A stretch of DNA of 63,873 nucleotides, the filler included, from Rhizaria sp. SCN 62-66 (Eukaryota): NCBI GenBank assembly GCA_001724265.1. It is 3 parts of 3 records of this genome, joined end to end, with 100 filler letters (N's around TTAATTAATTAA, not from the genome) between each part and the next. Parts side by side here need not be neighbours in the genome. Positions count along the whole stretch, not along the records: positions 1 to 25,348 come from MEDY01000414.1; 2 more parts are not named here. One strand, written 5' to 3'. The position numbers were made by a program, and so were the translations under genes. Positions 6,154 to 62,547 of this stretch are shown here, one piece after another (position 1 is the first letter of the stretch; each line of letters opens with the position of its first letter). The notes under the pieces were generated by a model. That model worked only from the letters and a program-made list of their open reading frames with translations. It was not told where the DNA came from and ran no database searches.

Positions 6154-9100
6154 GCTGAGGGATTGAGTCCGTGACCTGAATCTGTGTTGCAAAGGAAACG
6201 CGAAGCGCGCACACACAGAAACATATTAGCAGACGAGCGAATGAATGTGCCGTTCGTCACGTGTCACTTCGTTTTGTTAAGCTTACGTACGCGCTGCGAT
6301 TTCTCTTTGTATTGCGAAGTTAAACAAAATGTTTTTAATAACGTGGTTTAATGTGAAGTTTTGTACTTAAAAGCGAACAAGTGGCTGTTTCGTTTGGTTC
6401 CAAATTCTTCTGATCTCTTCAATGACTGGTCAGTGTCCGAATGCCACCAGCATTGTTGTAGATTTAGATGCTGCATTACTTGGCGACGAGTTGAATTTAA
6501 TGGCTTGACAAACAAATTATATTGAATAACGTACTTACGAGCTTTGACTGAAACACAGTGAAGTTGTGTGACTGTAGCCGAAAGCTACAGTCAGACTGTT
6601 GGATGTGACGCATATCAACCCGCATACCGAAGCTTGAAGCTATTCGCTCCACGGCGTTATTGCTCACGTAACATAGTCGATGTCTGTCCACGTGCTTCGA
6701 TTACAACGAATGAACTCTAACGCGAACAAACTGTATTCTGCGTTGTTGCAATCCGTGCCGATTCCAATTTCGATTCTAATACCGGCGTTAAATGATTGCC
6801 ATATCATCGATTTCACTCAAAACATTTATCGTCATCTTTCTCGTCACATTTACTTTCTGAGTCCCATATTCTATTTCGCCTCGATTCACTCACCACCCGG
6901 CAATCGCACGGCTTATATCTTCCCTGTGAGTCTCTTTGGTGTCACGCATCTGCTTTGCTGCCTACGCTGCCTTTGTTGCAGCGTGACATGCCACTATAAT
7001 CTGCATGCGTTTTTTGTGTCTTCTATTCAATGATCGCACGTGTGACTGGATATTTTGTGACGTGTTTTGTGCCTGTGCGCGTTAATGGTGCTAATTATAT
7101 GAAATGTGTGTTGCTATAGTGGCACATGTTGGCTCATATTGAATCCACTTTCACGTTTGCGCGTACACTTACTAACACAGCGCAATATGATACGGTGTTG
7201 CCCGTACATTACCATATCAACAACACCGCCTGCAACAAGATCAATGTTCCCCAATCACCAGACTAGCCGCTTCACGTGAGTGTACACATTCCCGTGTAAC
7301 TACCACGACCACAGCACATGATAAGCTCCTTGTCGTTGTTTCTCGTGGATGTGCTTGTTTCTTCATCGTTCACTGCTTCCCTTTTGCCCTTTGTCTTTGT
7401 GTTCTCTTCTGTCTATTGTTCTCTGTCCAATGATCAGTTACTAATTGCGTCACCCTCAGTTGCCGGCTCGTGTGTTTTTATTGTCTCGCATGAATGCGCA
7501 CAACGTTGTCGCATCCCGTCTTCATTCCTTGTGCATTGTCTTGCGATGTTTTTCCTCTGCAGGCCAGTGGTCGCGCGTTATAGCGCGAGGCCTCTCCCCA
7601 CCTGCCCCTCGGAAAGCACAAAAAACAACAGCGACAACAACGAATGTGACAGGATTGCAATAGCAGCCACCGCAGCCATGCTGTAGAACACATCAACCAT
7701 AACAAACAACATCAGGCATCACGATTACATCATTATGCCTGACGTGTTTCTGTCAGCACGGTATCTGTGCGTCGCGACTCTCCGTCTTGCGGCGCACATT
7801 AGCCAATCAGCCGCAACAGTAATCACTGCAATAGCAATAACTCCGACTTCATAATCAATAATAACGACAAGCACTTGCACTACGCGTCTTGTGTTAACAG
7901 GGGGAAGTTCAGTATAACCCGTGCGAACGACATGTTTTGCCGTGTCCTGCTATGCTTTGCCCATGTTGGACGCGAATATCTGTTTTTTTCTTAAACAATC
8001 AAATCAGTTCATTGTTACTGACTTGTAGGGTTTCACAGTTCATTTTGTTCATTTGTCTTCTTGGCTTTCTGTGTTATCACCCCTATCACAATGTTTAACC
8101 ACCACTTAAAGTTGTGTATTTTCGCCTCTCCGAAATCCTCTTGTCGCAACCGCCTCTCTCTCTACGTGTTATCTTAAGGCAAGATGACTTATTTTCGGCT
8201 TAATTGACGTGTTTTGTCTTGTTTTGTTTCATTTTCTTTGCGTATGTCTTTTATGTATGTGTCTAGTATATATTTTATGCCCTTTCTCTGAACTCTCTAT
8301 GCTGAGTAGGTTTGCTGAGTAGGTTCAAACTCTGAGTCATACGTGTTTTTCTGTTCTTTAGCTCACATGTTGTTTATGTTTGCCCCCATTTATACCGTGT
8401 TAAAACATACCACCCCTGAATCGACCACACACCACACAATGCCATGCTTTCATTTTTGGTATATGTTTAATCTACAACTACTATCGTTCATATCACCATC
8501 GACTATTCTTAACTTGCCATCATCACTTTTATCGTGAGTCGTCGCATGCATTGTTGCGGTCAGACAAAACCACAACTTCTTGTTGGCTGTACACTGTGCC
8601 AGTATCTTTACTGGAGCGTTCGACCTTTTTTTTGTGTACTTTTATTCGCGACACAGTCTCTGTGCCTCGCGCCACCCTGCGTTCGTTATTTCCTCCGCTA
8701 ATCAGCGCCTCCGCAACAGCAGCAGCACAGGCACGGCTATGTGAGGCGCGCCTCGACGCACATATGATAATAACACACTCGAGAACGTGCGGTTACCGAC
8801 AGGTAGCTGCGCGTGTCTGATCCTGTGCGTGCGCGTGAAGGCGCTGTCGACTGAGGCCGCATTTGGGGGACCTGTCCCCCCCGTATATTTCGGGGATATA
8901 CGTGTGTGGTGCTGGTGGAAATAAGATATTTGTTGATAGTCATTTGTAGTAATTAAATAAAAACAGATTTGTTTACCTATTAGACTTTGTTTGCCGCCTT
9001 TTTCAACATCAAATGCAACTCCACCACACGTTCTTCGAGTCTCTGTCGCAACCACTGGCCAGCCAGCCACTCAACGACTGGCAGCAACGGCTCGTTTGAA

Positions 9101-9438
9101 CCAAAAGCGTCCAGTGTGTGACAAACGTGAGTCATATTCGAGTGTCTGTATAATATACGATTAGAAGCGCACCGAAATATGCCGCTATCAAATTATTTCT
9201 CTTTTGACGGAACTCTGTGGTTGATACACGAACTAAGGGCCCGCAGAGGCCCGCTTCTCGGTAACCGTGCGCTCACTTAACTGTCTTATCGTACAACTCC
9301 ATTTCTGTCACACGTGCTACAAATTACACGAGGTATAGGCAAATTCTTATAATATTTTACCAGGCAACCTTGGTTAATTACTAAACCACCCAAGCTTCCC
9401 CTCCGCAGCGCCTCGCCCTTGGCCTTGCACGGCCCCAT

Positions 9439-12400
9439 ATGAGCCTGCCCCTGGCCCCCGCGTCAGAGTCTGCTGCGGCCGCCGCCGGCGAGCTGCTGTG
9501 CGTTCTCTGCGACCACGACCCAGCGCAATTCCACTGCTCCGTCTGCAAGCAGTCTTTGTGCAAGGACTGCGACAGCGACATCCACAGCACCTTCCAGCTC
9601 CGCCTCCACATCCGCACACCTCTGCCCAGGTCAGCCAACAGCAACTCGGCCGACCTGGCCGCCGATAGCTCCGTCTCCAGCGCGGACTCGGTTCCGCCGG
9701 CGCCGCCCACGCCGACGTCAGCGACGGCATCGACGCTGCAGATCCCGCCCTCGTCGCGGACCGAGCTGGCCTCTGCGTTCGACGAGGAGGAGGAGGACGC
9801 GGTGTTGTCCAGCACCGGCGGCGACACGCTGGCTAACGACAACAGCGGCGCCAGCACCGGCCCCGTCGCCGCACCCATGCAGGGTCCGCAGCCGCTGCTC
9901 GCTGGCACTTCTCCTGTCCAGGCGGACACTGCAACATCAGCCTCAGCCTCGGCCTCAGCCCCTGCCTCTGGCTCTAGCGCCGCCTCGGGCACAGTCGCAT
10001 CTACGGCTCCCCCAGCGGGTCCCGGTGCGCTGCCATCGGCGGCCGCGCCCGCCTCCGCGGCGGCGCTGCGGCCGCCGCTGCCCGGGAACGCCGCGCGCAC
10101 CCCGCCCAAGCCCTTCAGCGGCCACGGCACGCCCGCACAGCCCTACAACAGTAACCCGTATAGCAACAACAGCAGCGGCAGCGGCAGCGGCTATAACCAC
10201 CTGCGTGCCCCAGGCTTCGGCAGCGGCAGCGGCAGCTACCCCGCGTACGGCAACGCCAGAGGCAGCGGCGCCGGCAGAGGCAACAGCGCGGGCGACGACG
10301 AGGGCGACCTTCTGCCCGGGCTGCCCTCGACCTCGCCGTTCCCATACATGCGCACCGTCGCGCCCACGGCGCACGTGCCCCATAATGCGGAGGCGGGGGG
10401 TGTCACGGGCACCGCGACCAGCGACTCGTCGCATTCGTTCCCGCCGAACCCCGCGTTTGCGCACAATCGCAACGGCAGCATCGACGGCCACATGAGCATC
10501 AGCAACAGCAGCGACAACAATTCTGATAACAGCGGCGGCGGCTTTGGCGGCCGCGGCAGCTCCAGCCCGCCCATGCCGCCCTCTTCCCACTCCCCCGGCG
10601 TCCCCCCGCACCCGCACGCGCACTCGCAGTCGCAGGGCCCCGGGACGGGCCTCGGGCTCGGACTGGGCATGGGCGTTGGGGGGCCCGGGGTGGCTGCGGC
10701 GATGCCGTCGCGCACTCTTGGCCGTCCCCGGCCCGCGGCCGCCACTGCGGGCCCGCACTTTGCCGCCGACAACAGCGCGTTCGCCTCATGGGGCAATGAT
10801 AACATCGCGATCGGCCGCAGCGCCAGCAGCAGCGCGGGCGTCGGCGCCAACAACGCGAGCGCCATCATGGCGACCGCGCACGCGCACACCGTGTCTGCGC
10901 ACGCGGACGCGGTGCCCACGCCGGTCACCCCGGTCACGGCCGAGGCGGCGGCCGATGCCGCACACGCCGCCGCGCTGCTGCTGCCGCCTTCGCCCTCGCC
11001 GCAGCCGCAGCCCCCTCAGCCGCAGGCACAGGCGCAACAACAGACGCAAGACGCCGCCGCCGCTGCCGCCGCCGCCACTGCCGCGGACAGCACGGATGCA
11101 GTGCCGGCGGGTTCACCACGCGGCCGCAGGGGTAGCGCGCGCGCGCTGCCGCCCTCGGCCGCGCTGCACGCAGTCGCCGCGCCCGCCGCGCCGCCCGCGC
11201 AGCTCTCGCCCCCACAGCTATCACCCGCGCCCACCGCGGGGACGGCCGGCGTGACGGGGGCGGGGGAGGGGAGTCCCGCGTTCTTGCCGCACCCGCTGCC
11301 GCTGCCGGGCGGGCTGGGCAGCTACCCCTCGAACGCGTCCGCGGACGCTCAGTCACCCGCCACCGCCTCAGCCACGGCCAAGGCTGGGGATGGGATGAGA
11401 GGAGCGGCGACGCCTGGGGCAACAACGGCGACGACGGGGACGTCGAGCAATGCTTTTTCTTCTCCGTTTGCCGCCGCCGCGAACGCCAGAGCCTCCGGTA
11501 CATCTCTAAACAACAATAATAGCACTGCCAATGCTGGTGCAGTTGGTGCCAACAGTAACGCCGACAGAGCGCCCTCGGCCGCGGCCTCACACAGCACAGT
11601 CGGCTCCCCCGGTGCCCAGATGCCCGCCCACAGCAACAGCAACCGCGGCAGCACTAGCAGCGGCAACAATGCCAACGCTGTGGGGGCTCCCTCCGCCGTG
11701 CTGTCACCGACCGACGCGATCGTGGCGTTCCGACAGCAAATCCTGTCCTCGCCCGTGGGCCGGGAGCGGGTGCGCGCGCTGGCCTCGGACACCGAGGACG
11801 AGGACGAACTCAACAGCATTGAAGACGGCTTCGCCGTGGACGGCGGTGGCTACAAGAGCGCTGGCGCCACCGCGAGCGATGGCACGAACAGGAACACACA
11901 CGGCAACATTGACACTGTCGCTGATGCTGGCGCTGGAGCTGGGTTTGCTAGTCCTAACCCCGGTCGCAGCAACGCAGACGGCAGCGGCGGCGGCGACGGC
12001 GTTGGCGCGAGTGCGAGTGTGAACAGTGCGCTCCCAACCGAGAGGCGCCTTGACTTGGATTCGCCGGCCCCCGTCCCGCCCGCGCGCAATACTAGCTGGA
12101 GCGCTGTCGACCCCAGCAAGTCTGCCGCGGTTACCGAGGCGCCTGCAGAGTCCACGTCGACCGCACCCGCTGCCGCTGCCGGTGCCTCTGCAACTGGGAC
12201 TGATGCTGCGGGTGGCAATGCGACGATTACGGTTACTCCTCCGACCCCAATGCTGTCCGCGGTCTCTTCTTCCTCGTCAAATGCAACCACCAACGCACCC
12301 GCAAGCTCTAGCTCTAGCTCTAGTGCAACAGCAGCAACTGCCGCCCCCGCCGCCCCCACAGCAAGCACTAGCGCCGCTCCTGCTTCTGCGTCTACGACTG

Positions 12401-15400
12401 CGCCAGCGGCTGCTGCGCCCGCAAGCGGCGACGTGGATAACGACGGCATGCAGGTGACCGTGATGCCCGACGGGCGCGTGGTCAAGCAGCGGCCCTCGAT
12501 CGTGCAGACCATTCGCGCGGGTGGCAGCTACGTGTCCGGCCTGCTCTCGCCCACCGCGCCCGCGACGGGCTCCGCCGCGCCCACGCCCCTCGTCGGCGCT
12601 AACCCGAACCCCAGTGGCAGCAGCAGCGGCGGCAGCGCTATGCTTGCACTGCCCAGCTCAAGCGCGAACACAGGCTCGACCGCCAACGCGAACCCTAATT
12701 CTAGCTCAAGTTCTAGTTCTAACACTGGCGCTGCTTACGGCGCTGGTTCGAGCTCGAGCGGCAGCCTCGCGTTGGCCGCCAGCGCGCGCACGACTCGCGC
12801 CGCGTCGATCAGCGTGGGCATGACACCTCAGACGCCGCGGATGCTGGCCGCGTCGCGGGGCTCCTTCTCCGCAGCCAACACCGCGGGCGCAGGTGCGGGG
12901 GCGGGGCCCGGCAGCGCGGGGTACAACAAGTACCGTGCGGCCGCGATGTCGCTCGAGGTCAAGCAGCAGTCGCTGGCCAACGACATCGACGACGCTACCA
13001 GGCAGCAGCAGCAACAGCAGAAGCCGCAATTCGGCGTCAGTACGTTCAACAAAATATTCGGTAACAAATGAATTGATTACAACATCATGGTATCTAAGAC
13101 GAATCTAAAACTATAATCTAATATTTTACTTTGTACTCATTCTTTGTTCATTTGTTCAATTTTTGCTGTTTTTCTCCACTCAGACGGATTCGACCCCACG
13201 TCCGCGATTGCGCAGGCGCTGGCGAACAAGCTGCACCCGTCGGGCACGCTGACATACAACTCGCTCGAGGTCGCGGCGTGCGAGTCGGCCGCGGCGGAGA
13301 TCTACGCGCGCATCGCGGCGCTGGCGCCCGAGGCGCAGGCGACGGGCCACCACGCGGGTCGACTCAACGAGCTGCTCGCCACCGCCCACTCCAAGGCGGC
13401 GCAGGCGGCGGACCTGGAGCGGCGGCAGCTCTCGGAGCTGGACCAGCTACGCGAGTACCACAAGCGGCTCCTGGCGGCCGCGGACCGCGCCAAGGAGGCC
13501 GAGCGCGCGGCGCGGCTGCAGTGGGTCGCGCACAACGCTGACGCTGTCGCCGCCGCCGCTCGCGCGATGGCGCTGCCGGAGGGCGCGCTGCCGCCGGGAG
13601 TCGGACTGGGCGCCGACGGTGCGCAGGTCGCGCTGCCGCCCTCGCTCGCCGACCCCAGACTGGTTGTGCCGTACCATCTGCAGCCGCAGGGCGCGGGGGG
13701 TAATGCTGGCGCTGGTACGGGCACCGGGGTTACCTCTGGGATGCACAGTCGCAACCCGTCGCTCGGTGGCAGCAACTCGCTGTTTAACCCTAATAACATG
13801 AATGGCGGTATGACCCCCGGTGTGAACAGAAATGGCGACGCCAACGTCAATGCTCCCGCTGCCGCTGCGGTGCTGCCTGGAGGGTTCTCATACCCGTATC
13901 CCCCCATGAACAATCACGCTGCTGCTGCTGCCCCTGTTGTGCCCGCCCTCGTGCCGGGCTCCGTGCTTGTGCTGGGGCCGGACGGCGCTCTGAGGGCCAA
14001 CGGGGCCGCCGTGCCTCCGCAAGCGCTCGCCGCGCTCCTGGCGCAGACGCTCTCCGCGGCCACCAACACCAACACCAGCCCCAACAGCAACAACGCGGCT
14101 CTCGCGGGCCAGATGGTCGCCGTGAGCAGACAGGGTACGCGCCATACGTCCCCCGTTGCGCCCATGCACGGGGCCGCGTTCAGCGGCGCCGGCGGACTGA
14201 CGGCGGGGCCTCGGTCGTCCCCGAATCAGCAGGGGCCGTTCGCGGCTCAGTTCCAGCCGCAGTCGTTGCAGCCCGCCGCGATCGCCGTCATCGACGACAA
14301 CATCGTTGCCAACACTCGCGAGCCGCCGCCGCAGTCGCCTGCGATGACGATGAATGCCGCCGGGGCGAATGCTGCGGGCCTCTCGGTGCATTCGCTGGGC
14401 CTTGTTGTTTCTGACGCGAATAACAACAACAATATGAACATGAAAAATAACCAGCAAAGCGAGGTCTTCGGATCCGGAGGCTACGATCCCAACGCTGCCG
14501 CCGGCGCCGGCGTGACCGGTGCGCCTATGCACAACTACGGCCGCCCGGCCGAGGTGCTGAACGACTCCATCAGCGATCTGACCGACGGCGAGTCGCTCTC
14601 CGGCTCGGTTTCAGCCTCGGCAGCCTCGCTCTTTGCCCTCCCACCCCCGCGACCCTTCGCAGCCGACAACACCGAGCAGCAGCAGCAGCAGCAGCAGCCG
14701 AGGCCTGAGAGCAGCATCGACCTGGAGCGTGTTCCGCAGACGTCCCCCGCCGCCTACTACCAGCACCAGCGCGGCCCGCTCTCTCAGCATCAACAAAAGC
14801 AGCAGCAACAACAACAGAAGGAGTTCAGCGGCGGCAGCAGCCATGGTAGTCCGTTTGCGCCACTCTCGTCCGGCAGCAACGCCAAGCGCAGCAGCGCTAT
14901 CTTTACCTTCGGACTGCCGGAGTCGCATGGCGAGGCTGCTCTCCATGCGCCGGCGCAGGCGCAGGCGCAACAGCACGGTACTGGTGTGCCGGCTGCTGCG
15001 AACAGCGCTCAACAGCAGCAGCAGCAGCAGCAGCAGCAACGGCAGACAGGTCCCAGTAGTGATGAAGAGCCGTGGGTTGAGAAGGGCGGTCACGCGCACT
15101 CTGCTCACGGTCGCCCTGCTGGTCACGGCCACGCCTACGATGGCCCAGAACGTCATGGCAGCAACGGCCTCGGTCTGCCGAACGACTCGCCCTCCGCTGC
15201 GGCCGCCAGTCGTCACTTGAGCAGCGGACAGCAGCAGCGAGGCGACAAGAGGGGCAATGGTTCCCGCCCTGTGTCAGCCTCGTCGTCGGTGTCGTCCTTA
15301 GGGGCGGACCGCGGTAGCCGCCACAACGGCGACAACGCCCAGGGTCGGAACAGCCAGCGCCCTCAGCAGCGCGGCTACGATAATGACTCTGGCGATAACG

Positions 15401-18183
15401 GCGCTCACGAGTACGACGGCAACACGCGCACGCCACATCAGCTCCACAGTCGCGGCCAGGGCCAGGGCCAAGGCCAGGGCGCGGCGGGCAAGCGGGGCGG
15501 CGACAGCAGCGGCACGCGCAGCCGCACGCGCACCCCCGGCAGCATCGCCGCCTCGCTGTACAACGACTCGGACTTCGGCGCCAAGCGGTACATCAACGAC
15601 GCTCGTCAGGGTCATAATGCCAAGGGCGCTGGTTATGACGGCGATGATAATGATATTGATCAAGGTGGCGACTACGATGATAACGCCAACAATGCACACG
15701 ATGCGTATAAGCACGCGCGTGGCCGTGAGCGTCAAGCGTACGCGACGGTTGACGAGGACGCGCTGCTCCACTCTGCCTTTGAAATCGTTGACGACGACAA
15801 GAATAACCAGGAGAGCGACAACATGCACGACATGTACAACGATGATCGCCGTAGTTACCTCAACAACGAACGCACCCGCCCCCCGTCTGCCTCCGACTCT
15901 CGCCGTAACGGCGGCGCGCGGCAGCACCAGCCTTCTCGTCCTTGCAATCGCAACGGCAATCAATACCAGCAGCCCCAACAGCAGCAGTCGCAGCAGCAGC
16001 GGCTGGAGCCCCGCTCCGCGGACCTGTCGCGTCCTCCGTCGTCCTTCGGCCAGCGGTACAACAGCTACGAGCACACCGCCCACGACGACAACGACACTCG
16101 TGACCGTGATCGTAATCGCGACCGTGGCCGCGACTATGACCGCGAGCGCGACAGCGAGAACGACCGCTTCAGCGTTGCGCCGAGTGTCGAGCGGCCCGAG
16201 TCGGCCGCCCGCCGCCGCGCTGAGGTCACAGCGCGCGGCGCGTACGAGCCCGTGCCGCCGCGCCGCGCCGCCGCGGGGAACTTTGGCGTCGCGCCGCCGC
16301 AGCGCGGGTGGGCCGTTCTTCCGCCCTCCGGCTACCCGCACTACGCCCAACAGCAGCAATACCAGCAGCAACAGCCCTATTCACAGCAGCAGTATCCGCA
16401 ACAGCAGCAGCAGCGTCGGCTTCTCCCCGCGTCGGTTTCCGCCCCGCCGCCCCCGCAGCACGCGCCGCTGATGCGCGGCCCGCCCCTGGCCGTACTGCCC
16501 TCCGGTGCCGCGGCCCAGCTCGCCGCCGCGCGCGCCGCTCTTGCCGCGGCACAGCTCTCGCAGTCGCACGCCGCCGTTGTCGCCGGCGGCGCCGCGGCCG
16601 AGGCGGCGCTGCTGCAGGCGGCGCACGCCACGCGGCAGCGGCGCGGCACGGCGCAGGCGGCCGCGCTGGCCACGGCGGTCGGCGCGCGCGAGGCCGAGGC
16701 GCTGCGGCGCGGCCAGGGAGCTAAGGCGGCCGCCGTCGTGTGCCGCCACGGCGGCTACATGCAGTGGCTCATCGGCGGCGACGGCGCCGCGCTTGTCTCG
16801 GCGCTCGTGCCGCAGCAGGCGCAGCCGCACCCGCAGCAGCAGCAACAGCAGCGCCCTGTGATGCCGCAACAGCACATGCAGCAGCAGCAGCAGTCTCAGC
16901 AGTATCAGCAGCATGGCCCTGCAAGCCGAGACTATGACCGTGACCGCGACCGTGACAGCGCCTATGCTTGCGACGGCGACCGCGGCCACGATCGCGACTA
17001 CAGCCGTGAGCGTGCGCGTGCGCGTGGCTACGAGCGTGGCTATGACCGTGAGCGCAATGATACCGGTGACCGTTATAATCGTGTTGATAACCACCGTCAC
17101 TACGATCGCAAGGACGCACGCAAGAGCAGCCCCGTTAATGATCGCGACCGCCATTATGACGACGATAACGATGACGAAGGCCGCGATAACTGCGATGACA
17201 ATGACTATAATCGCGTTCGCTCTCACAATATCAACCGGCGTGATGACCACCCGTCACAGTCTCAATCCCGCGCGCACCATGATGACCGTAATCGCGACTA
17301 TGACCACGACCATGGCCATGAACGTGACCACGACCGCGATCATGACCTTGAGCGGGAGCGGGAGCAGGATCGTGAGTATGGCACTCGCGATGTCAGGCCG
17401 CCGAGACCTAGCCCTCGCACCGTGCTCTCCGAGCAGCGCGCCTCCAACGGCCACATTCACCCTGGCCCTAACGGCGGTGACGATGATGCCGCTGACGACG
17501 TTGTGGACGCCGACGACCGTGACGCCCACACGACTAACGACGACGACGACGCTGCCTCCGCGTTCGTGGACCCCGCAGCGGCGGAATGGGCCGCATTCGA
17601 CCCGTCGCGCCGGCCCACGCGCTCCTCGGCCTCGTCGCCCGCCGCCACGCCCGTGCCGCCGCTCCCGCTCAGCGCGCACTCGCTGGCCCAGTCGCACTTG
17701 AGCTCCAACGCTAGCGTCAGCGCCGGACAGCAGCAGCAGCAGCTGCTGCAGCAACAGAAGCGGCGCCCGACTGCGCCCCCGCCGCGCGCCTCGTCCCCTC
17801 CGTCCAACCCAGCAGGATCTGTGAAGCCGCCGGCTGACAACGAGAAGGGCGTGCTGCCCCCGCCGCGGCCGCCAGTGCCGTCGCGCATCGTCACCGCGAC
17901 TCGCCGTCAACCTCCTTCGCAGCAGCAGCCGCAGCAGCTAGCGCAGGGGCCGCAGCAGCAGGGGCAGCAGCGGGTGGCGTCGGCGGCGGCGGCCGCGGTG
18001 AACAAGAAGTACCGCCGCGAGCGCCAGGCCGCGCTGGCGATGCTGCTCGCGGCCGGCGCCGCTAACTCTGCCTTGCAGCAGCAGCAGCAGCCTGAGGACG
18101 GCGCCGGCGCTGACGTAGATGCTGATGCGGAGGCTGGAATCGGTGGGTGGGACAATGTGGGCGACCAGAGGCTTGTCCGATGA
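9439..18183 (+). CDS. Very large (~2866 aa) protein with an N-terminal B-box zinc finger, a short coiled coil and extensive disordered regions; two exons (9439-13039, 13184-18183)
   Basis: CVLCDHDPAQFHCSVCKQSLCKDCDSDIH...H is a B-box. ORFs 9439-13071 and 13144-18183 are joined in phase 1 by an AT-rich intron GTACGT(13040)...CTCAG(13183). An alternative donor at 13061 is also in phase. TGA stop. Confidence 0.8.
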
Positions 18184-18648
18184 CAACTCCCGCCAAACAA
18201 CTGTGGCAATGTGAAGCAACTGTATCATGAAGGTACGCCACTGATGTGGTACGCCTTTGGAAAATGTAACTTCTAAACTTACTTTAGCTCTTCTTAAAAG
18301 ATCAATACTCTGTGATCGTCGCTTACCTAATGTGATAACAATATCAAGCAATACACTGCAATTAGAATCTCTCTTCAAATGTGGGAATCTATCGATAAAC
18401 AATCTTATTGTATTGAAAAGCTTTGCTCTGCAAAGCGAAAATAAATGAAACTCGGAAAACTATGAATAATGTGACCATTAAGACGTATAGGTACAATACA
18501 GGGTCGCTACGTTGCACTGACTGCCTCACTCACCTGAGCCATAAACCACGTCCATGGCCGTGACCTTGGTGAGCAGCGGAATGTAGTGTACGCAGCGAGA
18601 CCAGTATCAACATAGTGGGCGCGATCGTTGGGTAACAAGCCTCGCCGC

Positions 18649-20573
18649 TCACTGGCGGCCCTGCATGAGCATCTGCAGCGCGGCGTTAGGGTCGCCGCTC
18701 GCGGCGGAGAGCGCCTGGAACGCGGTGTTCTCGTCCACGCCTGCGTGCTGGCTGAGCTGGCACACGAGCTGGACCTGCTCCGGACTCAGCTGCGTCGCCG
18801 CCGCCGTCGCCGCGGCGCCGTAGGCGAGCGCGGGCGGCGCCACGAGCCCGACGCCTGCGACGGCGCCGAAGGGCGGCGTGAGCGTGGCGGGCGCGTGCGT
18901 CGGCAGCACGTTGCCCTCGAACGGGACGGCCTTGGAGGTGATGAATAGCATGTCGTTGTGCGCGCGGACGACCTGGGCGCCACGCTAGTCGGCCGAGACC
19001 TGCAGCATGAACGTGCGGAAAAAGGTCCGGATGAGCCGGTTGGTGGTGTCTAGGAACTCGCCCGACACACGCACCGTGACCACGGGCGCCTCGGGGATCG
19101 GCACGGCGTCGATGGTGAAGGCGTCGATCTCGTGGTACGTGGTGGGCAGCTTGCCCAGCAGGTCACGGATTGCCGCCACGCCCGTGCGCGCGTTGTTGAT
19201 GTTCGGGGGCGAGATAAAGGGCTGCGCGACAATGTTGCGCGCGACGTTGGTATAGACGGCGAGCTTGTTGGCCTGGTTGACGCTGGCATCGCTGGCAAGC
19301 GAGATGGACAGGCTCGCGTCGGCCGCGTACAGCGTGAATAGACTCGGGTTGCGCGTGTCCAGATAGACGAAGAAGTTGCGCACGAACTCCTGCACCAGAT
19401 CGTCGACGTCGGGGCTGATGCACGACCCGGCGGGCTCGGGCACGCGCGCCGCCGCGGACGTCAGAACTGGCGGCAGCGCGAACTGCACCGACGGCACGAA
19501 CGCCTGAGCGGGGAGCAAAAGATAGGAACAAAAAAAAAAGGAAAAGCAAGTTTAGGACACACAAATTGAGTATGTTTCGAGTGGGGGTGCCAATCCAAAT
19601 AATAATATGTTGTCAGGAACAAATATAAATGATGTGTGCGAACACGTGTTCTTCGATTGACAAGGAGCCGTACCTGTCCGTTGAGCACGGTAAGCGAGGG
19701 AAACGACTGCGACATAAAATAGGAGAAAATGCGAAAGTCCATGCGCGTCAGCACGGGGTTCCCGGTCAAATCAAGGACCTCCATCGTGTCGCGGAAGTTG
19801 GACAGCCCCGAGAATGAGTCGATATCGTTGACCTGGTTGTTGGTCAGCGAGAGCCCCTTGACCTGGCTCGTGGCCTGCGTGAGCGGCTTAAGCACGCGCA
19901 GATCGCTGATCTGGTTGTCGCTCAGATCGATGAGGTTGACGTCGGGGCAATTGTTGCCGATGATGTTGCAGAGCGCGCGGACGAAGCCCTGGTTGTTGAA
20001 GTTCGTGTTGGGGTACGACGCGCGCAGCGAGGCCAGGTTGAGGAACTTTTGGTTCGTGTCGTACTTGCTGCCGATGACAGCGTAGAGCTCGGCCTCGAGC
20101 TTCGACGTTGCCTGTCCGCTGTTGTTGGCGCGGTGCAGTACGGCCTGCACGCCGCCGCGGACGTCGCGGTTGATGCTGTCGACGAGCTTGCTCGCGACCT
20201 TGGCGTCGACCTCGATCGTCGCAGTGCCTACGCCGGGCTGAAAGTTGTTCTTCATGATGCTCAAGTTGGGGGACTTCTTGCGGAGGAAAGCGGCGAAGTC
20301 GCGGAACTGCCATTGAGGGTTGAAGTTGGAGCACACGATCGTGGTGGTGGCCGAGTTGTTGTTCTTGAGCTGTGGACCGCGGCCGCCGCGGTTGTTGTTG
20401 TTGTTGTTGTTGTTGTTATTGTTATTGTTGTAGTTAGCATTGTTGTTATTGTTATTGTTGTAGTTGTTGTTGTTATTGTTGTTGAAGTTAGCATTGTTGT
20501 TGTTCGTGTTGCTGCTGTAGCGATTCCCGCCACCCGAGAAGCGATTGCCGCCACCACCGCCGCGATAGGACAT
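18649..20573 (-). CDS. NXF1: Nuclear mRNA export factor NXF1/TAP/Mex67 (RGG/N-rich N-terminus, RRM-like, LRR, NTF2-like, UBA-like C-terminus); exons 20573-19674 and 19503-18649; in-frame TAG at 18987-18985
   Basis: KYDTNQKFLNLASLR followed by LRRs (IDLSDNQISDL, LSLTNNQVNDI, LDLTGNPV). NTF2-like region includes LVQEFVRNFFVYLD, LGKLPTTYHEIDAFTID and RTFFRTFML...HNDMLFI. C-terminal QVQLVCQLSQHAGVDENTAFQALSAASGDPNAALQML resembles TAP-C/UBA. Intron GTACGG...CTCAG. Confidence 0.9.
20390..20505 (-). repeat. (AAC/AAT)n trinucleotide tract encoding poly-Asn in the NXF1 N-terminus
   Basis: Run of gtt/att triplets on the + strand. Confidence 0.85.
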
Positions 20574-21212
20574 CAAGGAAAGACTTGAAACGCAAAGAGC
20601 GTAAACCTGTTAGTACCAAAGTATTGCGGCTGCTAGCTTAGCAATGTATGATCGCGAGTGCGAGAGGGTTGGGCTGAAAATGGCGAGAAAATGGTGGGGA
20701 GATAGGTGAGGAATCGTGGGTCAAGACGTGCTTAGCGCGAATGCAGATAATGGCACCATAGCAACACATCGACAGATTTAATAGACATCTAGTAGAGATA
20801 ACCCATATATGTACGCGATATGAACGCGACATCGCTATAGTACGACGATTAGAGTGCATACCATTGGGGCAAAGTTGCGTCTCAATAAAACCTGCACCGC
20901 GCTGCCTTCGAACATTTTTTTCGGTCCGCGCTGGAGCCACCACAAATCGGTTTTGGCCAATCGAATCATTTTGCACTCGACCACGGTGACTCAAAGCAAG
21001 CATATCTTCATCGTTAAACTGTGCAATGTGGCAGAGCTCTTTTGCTGGAATATTATCGAGTGTCTAGAGTGTGGAATTATTATTGATACACGAATAGATG
21101 CATGTTTGCTGCAAATGTATTCACTTAAAGATTGCATCGGACTCTCAGATAACGTGCTTGTTTTGCTCACTCATATATTATCATATCAACTGGCTCCTCG
21201 TCTAGCCTAGCT

Positions 21213-24200
21213 ATGTCCCACGCTGTCCACAGCTCGTCAGCTACCCGCATTGATCATGATACTATTGGCGAAGTCGCTGTCCCTGCGAACGCGCTTTGGA
21301 GCGCACAGGTCCGTCCATATCCCACCAGATCTAATCTCAATCTCATCTCACCATCCCACCTCTCACCACGACTCTGACTCACGGAAACACAACTCACATT
21401 GGTACCTCGCTCACTCTTCAACTTGCAGACGCAACGGTCCCTCGACAATTTCAAGATCGGCGGCGTCGCCGAGAACATGCCGCTGCCTCTGATCCACTCG
21501 CTCGCCCTCATCAAGGCCGCTGCCGCGCGCGCAAACTACCCCGCGGGCGACGCCGTGGGCTCGGTCATCGAGAAGGCCGCGCTTGAGGTGGCCGCCGGGC
21601 TCCATGACGCGCATTTCCCGCTCAAGATCTGGCAGACTGGCAGCGGCACGCAGACCAACATGAACGGTTCGTCTCATCTCTTTATCTTTTACAAAGCTCT
21701 CTCGATATCACCATCACGAACGACATGATCTCACACGTATGCACTATAAATGATTGTAATGTGATTTCCTTGTTTGGCTTAGTTAACGAGGTGATTGCGA
21801 ACCGTGCGAACCAGCTGCTGGGCCTGCCTTTGGGCCAGTGGAGCAAGGTGCATCCCAACGACCACGTCAACAAGAGCCAGAGCTCCAACGACACCTTCCC
21901 CACCGGTACGCGCCACAATCAACTTGAATAGGACCAGAATGTGTGGGAACTAAGAAAACATTGGTGCGATGTACTATACTTACAATCTGACGTAGCTAGA
22001 GCTCTTTCAGGCTTATCCCTATCTTGTGTGTGTTGTGAACTTTTCTTGTCTCTCTTTAGGGATGCACGTGTGCCTTGCCCTCGCGCTTCGCAACCAGCTC
22101 CTCCCGGCTCTTGCGCGCCTTCGTGCCGTTTTTACCACGCTTTCTGAGCGTCACAAGAATGTCATCAAGATTGGTACGCATCCTACTATCTCGAATCACT
22201 CCTTGTCTTGCGTGAACGGCCACTCCTACTCTCGACTTTTTATGCACGATTGGAGATAGATTTGAACATATTGGGTCTCCTGCTTATTAATGCTGCTGCT
22301 GTCGACTCGCACCTCTCATTTTTGGGTCTGTTATCTTTATCTCAATCACGATGTGTTTTATAACTTAGGCCGCACCCACTTGCAGGACGCCACGCCCCTG
22401 ACCGTCGGCCAGCAGTTCACCTCGTACGCGCACCAGCTTACGCTCTCACTGCGCCGCCTGTGTCCGTTGCTTGCCTGTCCCGAGCCCGTCGCTCTTCCGC
22501 TTAAGGCCGGTGACGGCGTCAACAAGGATGGCGACGATGACACCGTCCCCGCGCCCGCTTTCTCGGTCCCTCGCTACGCCCTCATGCCCGACCCCATCAA
22601 TGCCGGCGCTGACCTGGATAACACGGCCGCCTACAGCGCCAACGGTGGCGGCCAGGCACAGTGGCCCCCGCTACTGGCGCTGGCGCAGGGCGGCACCGCC
22701 GTCGGTACCGGGCTAAACACCGCAAAGGTACGCACATATTCGTGCATATTCTCCGCGAAATTGCTACAATTGTCAGGTCATGCCATCCGCACATGTATTA
22801 TTGATCAACCCGTGTTAATTATTGTTTTTGTTTTATTATGTGATTATACAGGGCTTTGACGTTGCCTTCTGCGACCAGCTCCGAGCCATCGTCAACCACC
22901 ACGACACTACCAACAACTCCAACGCCAACGCCGCCGCATCTGCTGATTGCGACTTCGTGCTGCCGTTCTACCCCGCGGAGAACAAGTTTGCCGCGCTGGC
23001 TTCGCACGACTGCATCGTCGAGCTGTCTGGGCTCGTCACGGCCGCGGCCACGGGCCTCCACAAAATCGCCAACGACCTCCGGTACGAACATTTGACTTAA
23101 ATTACATCCCACATATTGTTTTCAATTACAAGTTGTTGTCAGTACTGTATTATTTTTTAAATATGTACATGGTTTACTTTTCGAGTCGGCCAATTGATCT
23201 AATTTGATCTTGATGATATATCTTTGGTTTCGCAACAATCTTTTAGGTATCTCGCCTCCGGTCCCCGCGCCGGCCTCGGTGAGCTGACCCTGCCCGCCAA
23301 CGAGCCCGGCTCCAGCATCATGCCTGGCAAGGTTAACCCCACGCAATGTGAGGCGCTCACCATGGTGTGCACGCGCGTTGTGGGCAACAACGCGACGGTC
23401 GCGATGGCTGGGGCGTCGGGCCAGTTCGAGCTCAATGTGTACAAGCCGGTGATCGTGGCCACGACGCTGCAGTCGATCCAGCTTCTCGGTACGTCGCGAT
23501 ACAAACATGTGACGATAACAAAACAACATACTACGCCTTGGTGATGCTTTGTCTTGTCTTCTTCATTGATCTGTTTTGCTCTAAGATCCCTGTCAATGCT
23601 GACATGACTTTGTGCACCTCTGCTTTCTCATTGTTCTTTCCAGCTGATGCGACTGAGTCGTTTACCGACAACTGTGCTGTCGGCATTCAGGTCAACGAGG
23701 TTCGTCTCTTCTATCGCAGACTATCAACATCGAACTCCTGACAGCCACAATTTCAATCTACCTGCATAACTCCGACTTCAAGCTGCACCTTACTTATACT
23801 TATATCTCCTGAATTGCAACCTCAATATCCCTGACACTCATGATGCCCTTGTTGGCGCGCCCATCTTTCCCCTGTATTCCCCCGACCCCAGGACCGCATT
23901 GACTCCCTGATGCGCTCGTCCTTAATGCTCGTCACCGCCCTCAACCCGCGCATCGGCTATGAGAACGCCGCGCGCGTGGCCAAGCTCGCCTTCAAGGAGA
24001 ACTGCACCCTCCGCGAGGCTGCGGTCGACAAACTCCAGGTACGACGCACCAAAACACGCCATATGCTCGACATGAACAAGCGTGTCGCTCTGAACAAGCG
24101 GCGACGCTTCGGGCTCGAAACTCTTATTCCTTCTTATTGTATCCTTCATCGTTACCTAACTTCAATTCGTTCTTCTAAATATGACGTTCTGCGCTGTTTT

Positions 24201-24268
24201 CATAGCTTCTGAGCAATGACGAGTTTGACAAGTACGTTGACCCCCGTCAGATGCTCGGTCCCAAGTGA
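21213..24268 (+). CDS. FUM1: Class II fumarate hydratase (fumarase), 10 exons: 21213-21308, 21429-21666, 21783-21905, 22060-22173, 22369-22727, 22852-23081, 23247-23488, 23644-23699, 23892-24038, 24206-24268
   Basis: Spliced motifs [79 protein letters not shown], the signature [15 protein letters not shown], and [18 protein letters not shown]. All nine GT-AG introns keep frame. TGA stop. Confidence 0.95.
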
Positions 24269-25062
24269 GCGAAGCCGTTGTTGCAATGTAAACGCGCAAC
24301 AAATAACACACCAATGAATGAGCAATGACGACTTCAAATGAAGTGAAAGTGCGCATGCGTGACGTTGTTCTTGATCAGTTCTACCAGAGGTTATATGCGA
24401 AATCTTATATGTGGCCAGATGATCATATTATGGCACTGAGATACATGCATTGAGTTTGTATGACAAATGTGCGATGATAACACTGAAACGAGATCCATGT
24501 TTTTATCAACATGAAGAACCTGTAAGAATCAAAAAATCAATCCTTGCAATACACCAACAAAAGAAAACAAAATGCCGTATGACTTCGTAAAACTGCGGTG
24601 GTTTAGTGAAAACAGATCATGTGTATTATCAACTCATATTCAGGCACATTCACAGTCGAATGTAGCACGTTTCAAGTTCTTCAACAAGCAACGGTGCTTA
24701 TTCAGATTGCGCAACAGTGATACTGTGATACAAAAATAGAAGATAAACACAGGGCGCCATGCGCGCTCGCTACATGCGGAGGAGTGAGAGCAAGTTCAGC
24801 CTAGCTGAATGCAACAAAGCAAAACAAACTGACACGTATTCACACACGATGTGCGCATACGTTGTCATCTCGATTCAACTCAGAAGCTCAAACGATTTTC
24901 TCACTCGCACAAACATGTGCAGATGGTACGTGCAAAGCTGGCCCCTGGTCCTATACTCTCCCGTACTCACCCATCCCACGTTCAAAAACACTCAATTTCA
25001 CACGTATGCGCGCATGCGATTACGCCGCGGCTGCGGTGTGTTCATGTTCAGCGCTGCCGCAC

Positions 25063-25348
25063 TCAGTTGTTGGCGGGCATCTGGGGCGGGGTGTCGATGG
25101 CGACAGCCTGGAAGTTGGGCGGGATAACGGGCATGAACTTGGAGTCCTTGGGGCAGAGCGCCTCGACGCCGTCACGCACCACCGACGGCGGGTTCGCGAA
25201 CAGGTTGGGGATCCACGAGCAGACGGGCAGCGCGGGGCACGGCTTGACAATCTGGGGGCCCGAGGCGTCCATGTGCAGGCAGCCGTTCTTCTCCCAGTAG
25301 ATGAGCGCCTTGTCGGCGCGCAGCATCGACTCGAGAATCTCGACGCAA
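25063..25348 (-). CDS. 3' fragment of an unidentified Cys/Pro-containing protein, truncated by the gap
   Basis: Open frame from the gap (CVEILESMLRADKALIYWEKNGCLHMD...PQMPANN, TGA) with coding-type codon bias. Confidence 0.65.
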
Positions 25349-25448
25349 NNNNNNNNNNNNNNNNNNNNNNNNNNNNNNNNNNNNNNNNNNNNTTAATTAA
25401 TTAANNNNNNNNNNNNNNNNNNNNNNNNNNNNNNNNNNNNNNNNNNNN
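25349..25448. other. Artificial contig-joining linker (N44 TTAATTAATTAA N44)
   Basis: Exactly 100 nt, symmetrical, with a 12-mer that has stops in all six frames. An identical copy lies at 51092-51191. Confidence 0.97.
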
Positions 25449-35342: not shown

Positions 35343-36830
35343 TCACACAGCCGCAGCTTCAGCCTTCTGTGTCTTGGTTGTTTGTTGCATATCCTGCGCT
35401 GGTTGCGTCTGCTGCAGCTGCTTCTGCTGTTGCTGCTGCTGCCAGAGCGACATGGCGCGCGTTTCGCTCATCCCTGCCCCCTTGGGCGCGCGATCCTCGC
35501 GCATCACGCCCTGCGCCTCGATCAGCCCGCGCCGCACGGCCGCGGAGCCCTGCTGGCCCGCCCTCTCCGTCCTCTCCCCCGATTCGCCAGATTGTGCAGA
35601 GTTGCGGCTGCAGCGGGCCAGCGCGCGCGCGGCGGCCGCGTCGGCCTCGGCGTCGTCGCGCGCGCGCCAGTAGCGGTCCACGGCCGTGGCGTCGCGCCGC
35701 GGCGGCCGCGGGGCCGGCACGGGCGCCGCCTGCGCGCCCAGTGACGCCAGCGAAGCGGGCAGCGGCACTAAAGCCGCGGACTCGGCTGCCGCACCAGCTA
35801 CCGCAGACTCGGCCCCACTGCTCGACGAAGAGAGCGCGGCGGCGGCGGTCTCGGCGCCCGCGCCCGCGGCGCCCGCGCGCAGTCGCTCCTTGGCAACGGC
35901 GCGAAGCCCATGCCAGTGCTATGCGCGCGCGCGCTCGCGCTGGAATTGCGCCTCGAGCGCGGGCGACACGAAGCGGCCGGCGACGATGTCGACGGCGTAA
36001 GTCCGCGAGTAGTACTCCCCAGCGCGCGCGCACTGCGCCTCGCGCTCCCGCGCCACGCGAGCGTCGTTATCCACCCAGTACCGGTTCGATATCACGTCGA
36101 ACTCGCGCCCGTCGCGGCCCGCATGCGCGGCGGCAGCGTCAGTCGCAGGGTAAGCAACGGAGGCAGAGCCGGTCGTGACATTGCTGTTTTCTGAGGCGGT
36201 GCTGTGCTGCGAGCGCGAGGGCATCTTGTCAAAGAAAGCCCAGAACTGGTTCGCGTCGACCTGCGCTCTGGTGACGCGGCCGTCGCTGCCGACGGGGCTG
36301 TGCGTGTTTGCATTGCCGGCGCGGGCCGCCGAGAGCTGGTCCAGCGCCGTCGCGCGCGCCGCGGGGCCGCCCGCTGCCGCGTAGGGCCGGTAGTGCAGCG
36401 AGCCCACGCCCGTGGTCGCCAGCGCGGACGACGTCGCGCGTGCCGCCGGTCGCGCCGACTGCGACTGCAATGGCGTCGCAGAGCCGTCCGGCACGGCGGA
36501 CGGATCAGTGACGGTGGAAGCGGAGGCGAGCTTGTTCGAGACTATGTTGAACTCGCGCTTGCTGCTCACAGTTGCGGCACGGTTCTGCGCCGACGCGCGC
36601 GCGGCGTCGCGGGCGAGCGCCTCGGCGGCGGCCATGCTCTCCTCGCGTTCCGCGGCGCGGTAGCGGCCCAGCAGCGGGTTGAAACTGTTCGAGTCCAGCG
36701 GGTTCGGCTTGCACGACTGCGCGCGGTCGCCGGGCGCCAGCTGCGGGGGTGCGCGCTTCTCAGAGGTGTACGTCTTCATCCAGTCGCCCCAGCTTGTGGT
36801 CAAGGCAAGCTTGTTGTCGGAGGACGACAT
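35343..36830 (-). CDS. Uncharacterised ~495 aa protein with repeated FNP/FNI/FDV-type motifs (possible ciliary/microtubule-associated protein); in-frame TAG at 35921-35919
   Basis: ORF 36830-35919 and ORF 35768-35343 are in the same frame, separated only by one TAG (ERARA*HWHGLRAVAKERL) with unbroken GC-rich codon usage. Repeated motifs: SFNPLLGRY, REFNIVSNK, REFDVISNRY, AVDIVAGRF. Function is inferred only. Confidence 0.7.

Positions 36831-59855: not shown

Positions 59856-59888
<33 letters not shown>

Positions 59889-62515: not shown

Positions 62516-62547
<32 letters not shown>

What the first reader, a model, noticed from the sequence alone, without database searches (positions are those of the whole stretch)
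18940..19030. In-frame TAG inside the NTF2-like domain of NXF1/Mex67
The minus strand reads ttc cgc acg ttc atg ctg cag gtc tcg gcc gac TAG cgt ggc gcc cag gtc gtc cgc gcg cac aac gac atg cta ttc, i.e. FRTFMLQVSAD*RGAQVVRAHNDMLF. The stop lies between the conserved RTF strand and the ND.LF strand that closes the NTF2-like fold. The same frame then continues into an intact UBA/TAP-C-like domain ending at TGA. Termination here would remove the last strand and the UBA domain of a normally essential export receptor, so this is the strongest single site for UAG decoding.
Basis: partly seen in the sequence, partly recalled or inferred. Interest (0 to 1): 0.85.

Follow-up and report, generated by a model that had tools for sequence, protein, structure and literature searches.

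The report
In-frame TAG inside an mRNA-export gene
An uncultured wastewater protist carries a genuine TAG codon in the middle of its NXF1/Mex67 mRNA-export gene, and the surrounding evidence suggests this organism reads TAG as an amino acid rather than as a stop, though no RNA or protein data yet prove it.

Summary
TAG lies at 18987-18985 (minus strand), in frame, inside a two-exon NXF1/Mex67 gene. The Pfam NXF_NTF2 match runs across it, and a UBA-like three-helix end follows before TGA. The TAG is real DNA: it recurs in a second metagenome contig, in an independent 2025 run, and in truncated ORFs called on 8 contigs. A 15-nt micro-intron is unlikely. Eight checked introns are 116-195 nt and AT-rich with GT[A/T]CG donors, and the supposed intron encodes an "SAD" motif shared with homologues. 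Sequence after the TAG stays coding-like in the same frame, unlike 11 true 3' flanks. A second in-frame TAG (35921-35919) behaves the same way. None of 16 apparent gene ends uses TAG (8 TAA, 8 TGA). Best reading (about 0.5): UAG is translated here and has lost its terminator role. Against a settled reassignment, TAG is almost absent from coding frames (0 of 9,032 codons against about 97 expected), so any change is recent or inefficient. No cDNA covers the site, no tRNA(CUA) or eRF1 could be examined, and the encoded residue is unknown. Rivals are a nonsense allele or pseudogene, site-specific readthrough, RNA editing and a micro-intron.

The parts
19674..20573 (-). NXF1/Mex67 exon 1. It runs from ATG at 20573 to CAG at 19676-19674 and holds an RGG and poly-Asn N-terminus plus the NXF-type LRR domain.
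   Evidence: ORF. Pfam LRR_NXF1-5 PF24048 scores E 5.6e-10, 39.4 bits against a cut-off of 30.5. The exon end cag|gtacgg was read.
19504..19673 (-). Intron of 170 nt, phase 0, GTACGG...polypyrimidine...CTCAG.
   Evidence: Sequence; GC 0.40. RNA contig X11 record 1 ends at 19496, inside exon 2. The splice itself is inferred from sequence and reading frame, not seen as a joint.
18649..19503 (-). NXF1 exon 2. It holds the NTF2-like domain, a linker, a UBA-like domain and the TGA stop at 18651-18649.
18940..19398 (-). NTF2-like domain (the Pfam NXF_NTF2 match).
   Evidence: PF22602 scores E 3.9e-22 over profile 1-157 of 158. Foldseek top hits are NXF1 NTF2-like domains: 9i8a_B at E 3.2e-12 with TM by target 0.76, and 1jkg_B at E 6.0e-12. 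phmmer against PDB finds human NXF1 at E 2.7e-5.
18985..18987 (-). In-frame TAG. It is residue 173 of exon 2, in the beta-hairpin turn between the last two strands, and is followed by C.
   Evidence: Identical in L001 and in the X4 contig.
18985..18999 (-). The 15 nt GTCTCGGCCGACTAG proposed as a micro-intron, judged here to be coding (V S A D plus TAG).
   Evidence: GC 0.67 and 15 nt, against 8 introns of 116-195 nt and GC 0.30-0.48 with GT[A/T]CG donors. 'SAD' aligns with PSAD, PTAD and PNAD in P0017, P0038, P0005 and P0027.
18655..18783 (-). UBA-like three-helix C-terminal domain.
   Evidence: AlphaFold2 helices 241-254, 258-267 and 272-283, block pLDDT 91-97. Pfam UBA_8 E 0.005, below its cut-off. 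Aligns with homologue C-termini, with L265 nearly invariant.
35919..35921 (-). Second in-frame TAG, in an orphan gene (ATG 36830 to TGA 35345-35343). It is also followed by C.
   Evidence: 191 open codons follow. GC in the next 150 nt is 0.75. The codon model gives +0.75 in frame 0 against -0.19 and +0.12 in the other two frames. The gene has no Pfam family and no Atlas relative.

Best explanation
The TAG at 18987-18985 is a genuine genomic codon inside the coding sequence of a functional NXF1/Mex67 gene, and the ribosome reads it as an amino acid. UAG has probably lost, or nearly lost, its terminator role throughout this uncultured GC-rich, intron-bearing, ciliated protist, while TAA and TGA still terminate. 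UAG would be decoded by a suppressor-type tRNA (anticodon CUA is inferred, not seen).

In-frame TAG is extremely rare, so the change is either recent (UAG first vanished as a stop and is only beginning to reappear) or inefficient and still selected against. The site tolerates it because it lies in a solvent-exposed hairpin turn at a variable alignment column.

Shown: the TAG is real, the domain and frame continue across it, the downstream sequence is coding-like, no TAG terminators occur in the window, and a micro-intron fits poorly. Inferred: translation through UAG, the genome-wide scope and the tRNA mechanism. The encoded residue is unknown.
For: 1. The TAG is real and stable. It appears in L001 (100% identical over 3,654 bp), in the X4 contig from another study (0 differences over 18768-19361), and in ORFs ending ...VSAD on 8 contigs. 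No uninterrupted allele was found. The near-length search returned 1 protein, the window's own, among 7,120 candidates. The longer-length search returned none among 8,000.

2. The domain continues across the TAG. PF22602 covers profile 1-157 of 158. The human NXF1 alignment spans it. The AlphaFold2 model of the read-through product has block pLDDT 95-98 over residues 161-190, and the UBA-like bundle has 91-97. NXF1 structures are the top Foldseek hits.

3. Sequence after the TAG is coding-like. GC in the next 150 nt is 0.73 and GC3 is 0.94, with 111 open codons. At 16 TAA/TGA ORF ends the same measures are GC 0.19-0.61, GC3 0.16-0.64 and 0-44 open codons. A codon model trained on 9,032 codons of other genes scores +1.04 in frame 0 against -0.16 and -0.08 in the other frames, while 11 true 3' flanks score -1.1 to -2.0.

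4. The second in-frame TAG, at 35921, has the same signature.

5. None of 16 apparent gene termini uses TAG; 8 use TAA and 8 use TGA. If TAG made up 20-33% of stops, the chance of this would be about 0.03-0.002 (my calculation; the typical share is recalled, not measured).

6. UAG-only reassignments with UAA and UGA kept as stops are precedented (PMC5304391, passages read; PMC11687900, passage read).
Against: TAG is almost absent from coding frames. It occurs 0 times in 9,032 codons of 11 gene segments, where about 97 would be expected from position-specific base composition, although it does occur off-frame 18 and 39 times. Only 2 occur in roughly 14,000 codons overall. For comparison, the rhizarian exLh had 384 in-frame UAGs in 71 genes.

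The whole case rests on one 64-kb window, 2 sites and 16 termini. No tRNA gene lies in the window. No genome is held, so tRNA(CUA), eRF1 and a second NXF1 copy are untested. No RNA contig covers the site: depth is 0 in bin 18864-19095 for X5, X6 and X11.

The TAG aligns with a variable column (V, S, A, G or Q in homologues), so homology neither confirms a residue nor proves translation. The nearest NXF homologue is only 37% identical, so there is no orthologue test of selection. The second gene is a disordered orphan, and its TAG could be a true stop followed by an unusual GC-rich tail.
Confidence: 0.5

Rival explanations
1. Nonsense allele or young pseudogene under the standard code. TAG terminates, giving a truncated product of 472 aa that lacks the last strand and the UBA-like domain. 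The cell survives through another NXF copy, another allele or low basal readthrough.
For: In-frame TAG is nearly absent elsewhere (0 of 9,032 codons), as expected if TAG is a stop. With GC3 near 0.9, most one-step nonsense mutations, such as CAG, GAG, AAG, TCG, TTG, TGG or TAC to TAG, give TAG rather than TAA or TGA (inference). The populations sampled are almost clonal, with 1 difference in the 1,886-nt X4 contig and 0 in the other six long X4 pieces listed, so a shared recent mutation is possible.
Against: The TAG persists in all 8 contigs and in an independent 2025 run, and no intact allele was seen. The downstream 111 codons show no decay: the frame is open, GC3 is 0.94, the codon score is +1.04 and the UBA-like fold is confident. 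A second gene shows the same pattern. This reading does not explain 0 of 16 TAG terminators.
Confidence: 0.15
2. Site-specific (programmed or tolerated) readthrough under an otherwise standard code. UAG followed by C is leaky, and near-cognate tRNAs insert a residue often enough to make full-length NXF1.
For: Both in-frame TAGs are followed by C. That C at +4 is the leakiest context is recalled knowledge. The extreme rarity of in-frame TAG fits a codon that still mostly terminates.
Against: No stimulatory RNA structure is predicted at either site; the z-scores are +1.04 and +0.97, worse than shuffled sequence. Known programmed readthrough extends proteins at their normal ends rather than interrupting an essential fold mid-domain (recalled). 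This reading does not explain 0 of 16 TAG terminators, unless leakiness itself drives avoidance of TAG, in which case it merges with the best explanation.
Confidence: 0.12
3. mRNA editing converts UAG to a sense codon (for example A-to-I giving UGG, or U-to-C giving CAG) before translation.
For: It would explain in-frame TAGs in otherwise intact genes. Stop-correcting A-to-I editing of UAG is known in filamentous fungi (recalled, no paper read here). Promiscuous editing could also discourage TAG terminators.
Against: There is no evidence of editing. Across 18400-25340 the RNA-type contigs show no systematic A>G changes within the organism's own pieces, and the differences listed lie at 23334-25303 in multi-organism conserved sequence. 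No hairpin places the TAG in a stable loop. The prior for nuclear mRNA editing in protists is low.
Confidence: 0.06
4. A 15-nt (or 27-nt) GT..AG micro-intron removes the TAG from the mRNA.
For: The TAG is preceded 12 nt upstream by CAG|GT, so GTCTCGGCCGACTAG has GT..AG ends and a length divisible by 3. Removing it leaves a hairpin of 15 residues, within the homologue range of 14-24.
Against: Eight checked introns are 116-195 nt with GC 0.30-0.48, donor GT[A/T]CG and pyrimidine-rich tails. Seven were seen spliced in RNA contigs, and three or four more read by eye look the same. The candidate is 15 nt, GC 0.67, has donor GTCTCG and no pyrimidine tract. Its codons give 'SAD', matching PSAD, PTAD or PNAD in 4 of 45 aligned homologues, including the closest class. 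Any TAG ends in AG, and an in-frame GT within 60 nt upstream is expected by chance about 70% of the time (my estimate). At the second TAG the nearest in-frame GT gives an equally atypical 51-nt GC-rich segment.
Confidence: 0.04

Closest known systems
UAG-only stop-to-sense nuclear codes: rhizarian exLh (UAG=Leu), Iotanema spirale (UAG=Gln) and phyllopharyngean ciliates (UAG=Leu or Gln). Sources: PMC5304391, passages read; PMC11687900, passage read.
   Same: In-frame UAG inside conserved genes, while UAA and UGA are the only terminators. In exLh the terminators were 56 UAA, 15 UGA and 0 UAG; here they are 8 TAA, 8 TGA and 0 TAG. A CUA-anticodon tRNA is the expected decoder.
   Different: In-frame UAG is far rarer here: 2 in about 14,000 codons, and 0 of 9,032 in 11 genes, against 384 in 71 genes in exLh. 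The amino acid is undetermined. The organism is a GC-rich, non-ciliate, intron-bearing protist from wastewater whose p28 dynein best named hits are myzozoan alveolates. That is a single-gene hint only.
Human NXF1/TAP and yeast Mex67 (PDB 9i8a, 1jkg, 4wyk, 4wwu)
   Same: The LRR, NTF2-like and C-terminal UBA-like architecture is shared. The NTF2-like fold matches at Foldseek E 3e-12 with TM by target about 0.77.
   Different: Sequence identity is about 21%. The hairpin between the last strands is 4 residues longer than in human NXF1. Pfam TAP_C is not matched. The N-terminus is rich in RGG and poly-Asn.
UAR=Gln codes (Amoeboaphelidium, oxymonads, ulvophytes, many ciliates), as listed in PMC5304391 and PMC11687900
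   Same: UAG is read as sense.
   Different: In those codes TAA is reassigned together with TAG. Here TAA ends 8 of 16 genes, including p28 dynein light chain at Pfam profile position 186 of 187.
Tiny-intron genomes (15-16-nt introns of heterotrich ciliates; recalled, no paper read here)
   Same: A 15-nt GT..AG segment could be drawn around the TAG.
   Different: Such organisms have tiny introns genome-wide. Here all checked introns are 116-195 nt.

Membership tests
NXF1/TAP/Mex67 mRNA export receptor | NXF-type leucine-rich repeat domain | tested here: met
   PF24048 LRR_NXF1-5 scores E 5.6e-10, 39.4 bits against a cut-off of 30.5, in exon 1.
NXF1/TAP/Mex67 mRNA export receptor | NTF2-like domain of the NXF type | tested here: met
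   PF22602 scores 79.5 bits against a cut-off of 27, over profile 1-157 of 158. The top 10 Foldseek hits are NXF1 or NXF2 NTF2-like domains, down to E 3.2e-12. The match needs the TAG to be read through for the last strand.
NXF1/TAP/Mex67 mRNA export receptor | C-terminal UBA/TAP-C domain | tested here: inconclusive
   Pfam TAP_C gives no match. UBA_8 scores E 0.005, 16.9 bits, under its cut-off of 26. AlphaFold2 gives a three-helix bundle with block pLDDT 91-97, and the region aligns with homologue C-termini.
NXF1/TAP/Mex67 mRNA export receptor | Heterodimer with p15/NXT1 or Mtr2 | not tested
   No partner gene was identified in the window and no complex job was run.
UAG stop-to-sense nuclear code variant | UAG absent from genuine gene termini while UAA and UGA terminate | tested here: met
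   0 TAG, 8 TAA and 8 TGA among 16 apparent termini. The sample is small, and only some ends were confirmed by homology: p28 at profile 186 of 187, TMEM144 at 332 of 332, and NXF1.
UAG stop-to-sense nuclear code variant | Frequent in-frame UAG at conserved positions of many genes | tested here: not met
   0 of 9,032 codons in 11 genes, against about 97 expected if the codon were unconstrained. Only 2 sites were found in the window, both at non-conserved positions.
UAG stop-to-sense nuclear code variant | Cognate tRNA with anticodon CUA | not testable with these tools
   ARAGORN finds 0 tRNA genes in the window, and no genome is held.
UAG stop-to-sense nuclear code variant | Altered eRF1 stop-codon recognition motifs | not testable with these tools
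   eRF1 is not in the window, and no genome is held.
Spliceosomal micro-intron | Size, composition and splice signals like the organism's other introns | tested here: not met
   The candidate is 15 nt, GC 0.67, with donor GTCTCG and no pyrimidine tract. Eight checked introns are 116-195 nt, GC 0.30-0.48, with donor GT[A/T]CG.
Spliceosomal micro-intron | Absent from mature mRNA | not testable with these tools
   RNA-type runs X5, X6 and X11 have depth 0 in bin 18864-19095.
Programmed stop-codon readthrough | Leaky context and/or a downstream stimulatory structure | tested here: inconclusive
   The base at +4 is C at both TAGs, but no stable local structure is predicted; z-scores are +1.04 and +0.97.

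The most novel reading that the evidence does not exclude
This uncultured protist is caught at an early stage of a UAG reassignment. UAG has already disappeared from all gene ends and is no longer an effective terminator, but it has only just begun to reappear inside genes, at about 0.1 per 1,000 codons and at tolerant positions such as a hairpin turn of NXF1. That would be a natural intermediate of the codon-capture or ambiguous-intermediate route, in a lineage (possibly alveolate) with no known code change.
Probability: 0.3. Interest if true: 0.8.

Novelty: new member of a known kind. Interest (0 to 1): 0.6.

Why it matters
Nuclear code changes that affect UAG alone are known from only a few lineages. 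All described cases are well advanced, with UAG used abundantly as a sense codon. An organism in which UAG has vanished as a terminator but is still almost unused as a sense codon would show what the intermediate state looks like. It would make the competing models directly testable, by asking whether a tRNA(CUA) is present and whether eRF1 has changed.

There is also a practical point. Standard-code gene calling splits this NXF1 into 177-aa and 100-aa fragments in public protein collections (P0001 and P0002). Genes of this organism may be mis-annotated wherever TAG occurs.

Tried and rejected
- **Whole genome.** None is held, so a second NXF1 copy, tRNA(CUA), eRF1 and genome-wide stop usage could not be examined.
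- **cDNA test.** Runs X4, X5, X6 and X11 were laid on 18400-25340. The RNA-type runs splice the fumarase introns but give no cover at the TAG. A part without cover proves nothing.
- **Orthologue test.**
  - The metagenome scan found only an identical contig.
  - Word-indexed searches at near and longer lengths found only the window's own fragment, or nothing. The 'shorter' lengths were not searched.
  - The full HMMER search found 97 proteins. Two are the window's own pieces, one (P0003, cubilin-like) is spurious, and the best real hit is 37% identical. No dN/dS or residue inference was possible.
  - I aligned 22 of the hits and then 45 of them.
- **Residue identity.** The TAG column is variable (V, S, A, G or Q), so no amino acid can be proposed. 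TAG=Q was used only because those tools need a residue.
- **Internal repeat in the second gene.** A DRYW...DDA motif recurs on both sides of its TAG, but BLASTP with composition correction switched off gives only low-complexity-type matches. I rejected this as evidence.
- **Protein Atlas.** The part upstream of the TAG found nothing usable. The AlaRS query gave no taxonomy.
- **Earlier findings of this scan.** Three look-ups returned nothing.
- **Frame picker.** My GC-block frame picker used a flawed score that favoured antisense frames, so I discarded it.
- **Gene at 51220-52206.** I dropped it from the terminator count because its TGA sits in G|GTGAGC next to a masked stretch and may be a splice donor. 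The TGA at 13069 is intronic, and so is the TGA at 32266.
Full report
**Observation.** The window is a metagenome contig from bioreactor and wastewater samples. It belongs to a GC-rich eukaryote with GC-rich exons and AT-richer introns and spacers. The window also encodes BBS2, an axonemal p28 dynein light chain, alanyl-tRNA synthetase, fumarase, TMEM144 and a cyclophilin-RRM protein, so the organism is ciliated and uses spliceosomal introns.

**The gene.**
- Exon 1 (20573-19674) carries an RGG and poly-Asn N-terminus and the NXF-type LRR domain (PF24048, 39.4 bits against a cut-off of 30.5).
- A 170-nt phase-0 intron follows (19673-19504; GTACGG...pyrimidine tract...CAG).
- Exon 2 (19503-18649) carries the NTF2-like domain, a linker and a UBA-like end.
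- PF22602 NXF_NTF2 matches with E 3.9e-22 over profile positions 1-157 of 158. That is 15 residues beyond the TAG.
- phmmer against PDB sequences aligns human NXF1 across the TAG, placing it at the turn PASNSG.
- An AlphaFold2 model of the read-through exon 2, built from a 46-sequence alignment, has mean pLDDT 84.2. Block pLDDT is 95-98 over residues 161-190. Strands lie at 157-171 and 177-194, with the TAG residue (173) in the turn between them. A confident three-helix bundle lies at 241-283.
- The best Foldseek PDB hits are NXF1 and NXF2 NTF2-like domains, such as 9i8a_B at E 3.2e-12.
- Pfam TAP_C does not match, and UBA models score only below their cut-offs.

**Is the TAG real?** Yes.
- L001, a separate 3,654-bp metagenome contig, is 100% identical and carries it.
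- A contig from run X4 (2025, another study) covers 18768-19361 without a difference.
- Public gene calls ending ...VSAD occur on 8 contigs.
- No uninterrupted allele turned up in the 5.8-billion-protein index at near or longer lengths.

**Is it a micro-intron?** The 15 nt GTCTCGGCCGACTAG do have GT..AG ends, but they fit this organism's introns poorly.
- Seven fumarase introns are seen spliced in the RNA-type contigs of X5 and X6.
- Together with the NXF1 intron they are 116-195 nt with GC 0.30-0.48, donors GT[A/T]CG and pyrimidine-rich tails. Further introns read by eye look the same.
- The candidate is 15 nt, GC 0.67, has donor GTCTCG and no pyrimidine tract.
- I aligned 45 of the 95 foreign hits. 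In these the hairpin between the invariant R and the ND motif is 14-24 residues long. The window has 20 if read through and 15 if the 15 nt are removed, so length does not decide.
- The residues 'SAD', encoded inside the supposed intron, match PSAD, PTAD or PNAD in P0017, P0038, P0005 and P0027. These belong to the long-hairpin class that contains the closest relatives.

**Does coding continue after the TAG?**
- At 16 TAA/TGA ORF ends, the next 150 nt have GC 0.19-0.61 and GC3 0.16-0.64, and the frame closes within 0-44 codons.
- After this TAG, GC is 0.73 and GC3 is 0.94, and 111 codons stay open.
- A codon-usage model trained on 9,032 codons of 11 other gene segments scores the downstream segment +1.04 per codon in frame 0. 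The other two frames score -0.16 and -0.08. Eleven true 3' flanks score -1.1 to -2.0.

**Wider pattern in the window.**
- A scan of all TAGs with at least 40 open codons on both sides found one other sense-like case. It lies at 35921-35919 in an orphan gene (36830-35343).
- There, 191 GC-rich codons follow that are coding-like in frame 0 (score +0.75).
- Both TAGs are followed by C.
- I corrected for stops that lie in introns (13069, 32266) and dropped one doubtful end (51220). After that, 16 apparent gene termini use TAA 8 times, TGA 8 times and TAG never.
- With a TAG share of 20-33%, which is a recalled typical range, the chance of none in 16 is about 0.03-0.002.

**Evidence against a settled reassignment.**
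- In the 9,032 training codons TAG never occurs in frame. About 97 would be expected from position-specific base composition, and TAG does occur off-frame 18 and 39 times.
- The rhizarian exLh, by contrast, had 384 in-frame UAGs in 71 genes (PMC5304391, passages).
- UAG is therefore not an ordinary sense codon here.
- No tRNA gene lies in the window, and no stabilising RNA structure flanks either TAG.
- The RNA-type runs give no cover at the site, so splicing, editing and decoding remain untested at the RNA level.
- No close NXF1 orthologue exists in the collections; the best is 37% identical.
- A sister organism is visible through a p28 protein that is 90% identical.

**Interpretation.** The most economical reading is that UAG is translated in this organism and has lost its terminator role, while being recent or inefficient as a sense codon (confidence 0.5). 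The rivals are:
- a nonsense allele or young pseudogene (0.15);
- site-specific readthrough under a standard code (0.12);
- mRNA editing (0.06);
- a micro-intron (0.04).

The remainder is unassigned.

**Comparison with known cases.**
- UAG-only reassignments that keep UAA and UGA as stops are described for the rhizarian exLh (Leu), Iotanema (Gln) and phyllopharyngean ciliates (PMC5304391, passages; PMC11687900, passage).
- UAR=Gln codes do not fit, because TAA ends 8 genes here.
- The Amoebophrya case (PMC6394959; abstract and outline read) differs, with all three stops reassigned and AT-biased third positions.
- The organism's placement is uncertain. The best named p28 hits are dinoflagellates, Amoebophrya, Chromera and Vitrella at about 52-55% identity, together with the rhizarian Lapot. 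This is a single-gene hint only.

**Verdict.** If true, it is a new member of a known kind of code change, possibly at an unusually early stage.

Noticed in passing
window 35343-36830 (-), TAG at 35921-35919: An orphan, Ala-rich, probably disordered gene carries a second in-frame TAG followed by 191 coding-like codons. No Pfam family or Atlas relative was found. REFNIVSN and REFDVISNRYW motifs are present.
   Followed up: partly
window 58639-63498 (+): A 1,620-codon open frame with much lower GC3 (about 0.5) than the other genes. Its only Pfam hit is a sub-threshold TFIIA match (22.8 bits against a cut-off of 36.2), so it is probably a low-complexity protein.
   Followed up: partly
window 9385-18183 (+): The two long ORFs appear to be one giant gene of about 2,900 codons, joined across a 143-nt intron (13041-13183). 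The protein has a B-box-like zinc-finger start and is rich in poly-Gln, poly-Asn and RD/DR repeats.
   Followed up: partly
window 21667-24210 (+), fumarase: The splice donors are unusual, with consensus G|GT[A/T]CG in 8 of 8 checked introns. Seven of the introns are confirmed by spliced RNA contigs.
   Followed up: yes
window 25349-25448 and 51092-51191: Four 44-base runs of N (masked stretches). Sequence next to the first, at 25060-25340, attracts contigs from several organisms with many third-position differences, so it looks like a highly conserved gene.
   Followed up: no
window 38795-42000 (-), alanyl-tRNA synthetase: The nearest structural clusters in the protein Atlas are archaeal AlaRS (TM 0.86 by query). 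The sequence-feature hits are bacterial and archaeal, and no eukaryotic cluster was listed.
   Followed up: no
window 37704-38387 (+), p28 dynein light chain; proteins P0103 and P0226: A sister organism with 90% identical p28 is present in JGI data as complete spliced 251-aa products. It would be the natural source of an NXF1 orthologue.
   Followed up: partly
window 6200-9300: A 3-kb AT-rich spacer with no Pfam match in any of the six frames, unusually long compared with the other intergenic gaps in the window.
   Followed up: partly
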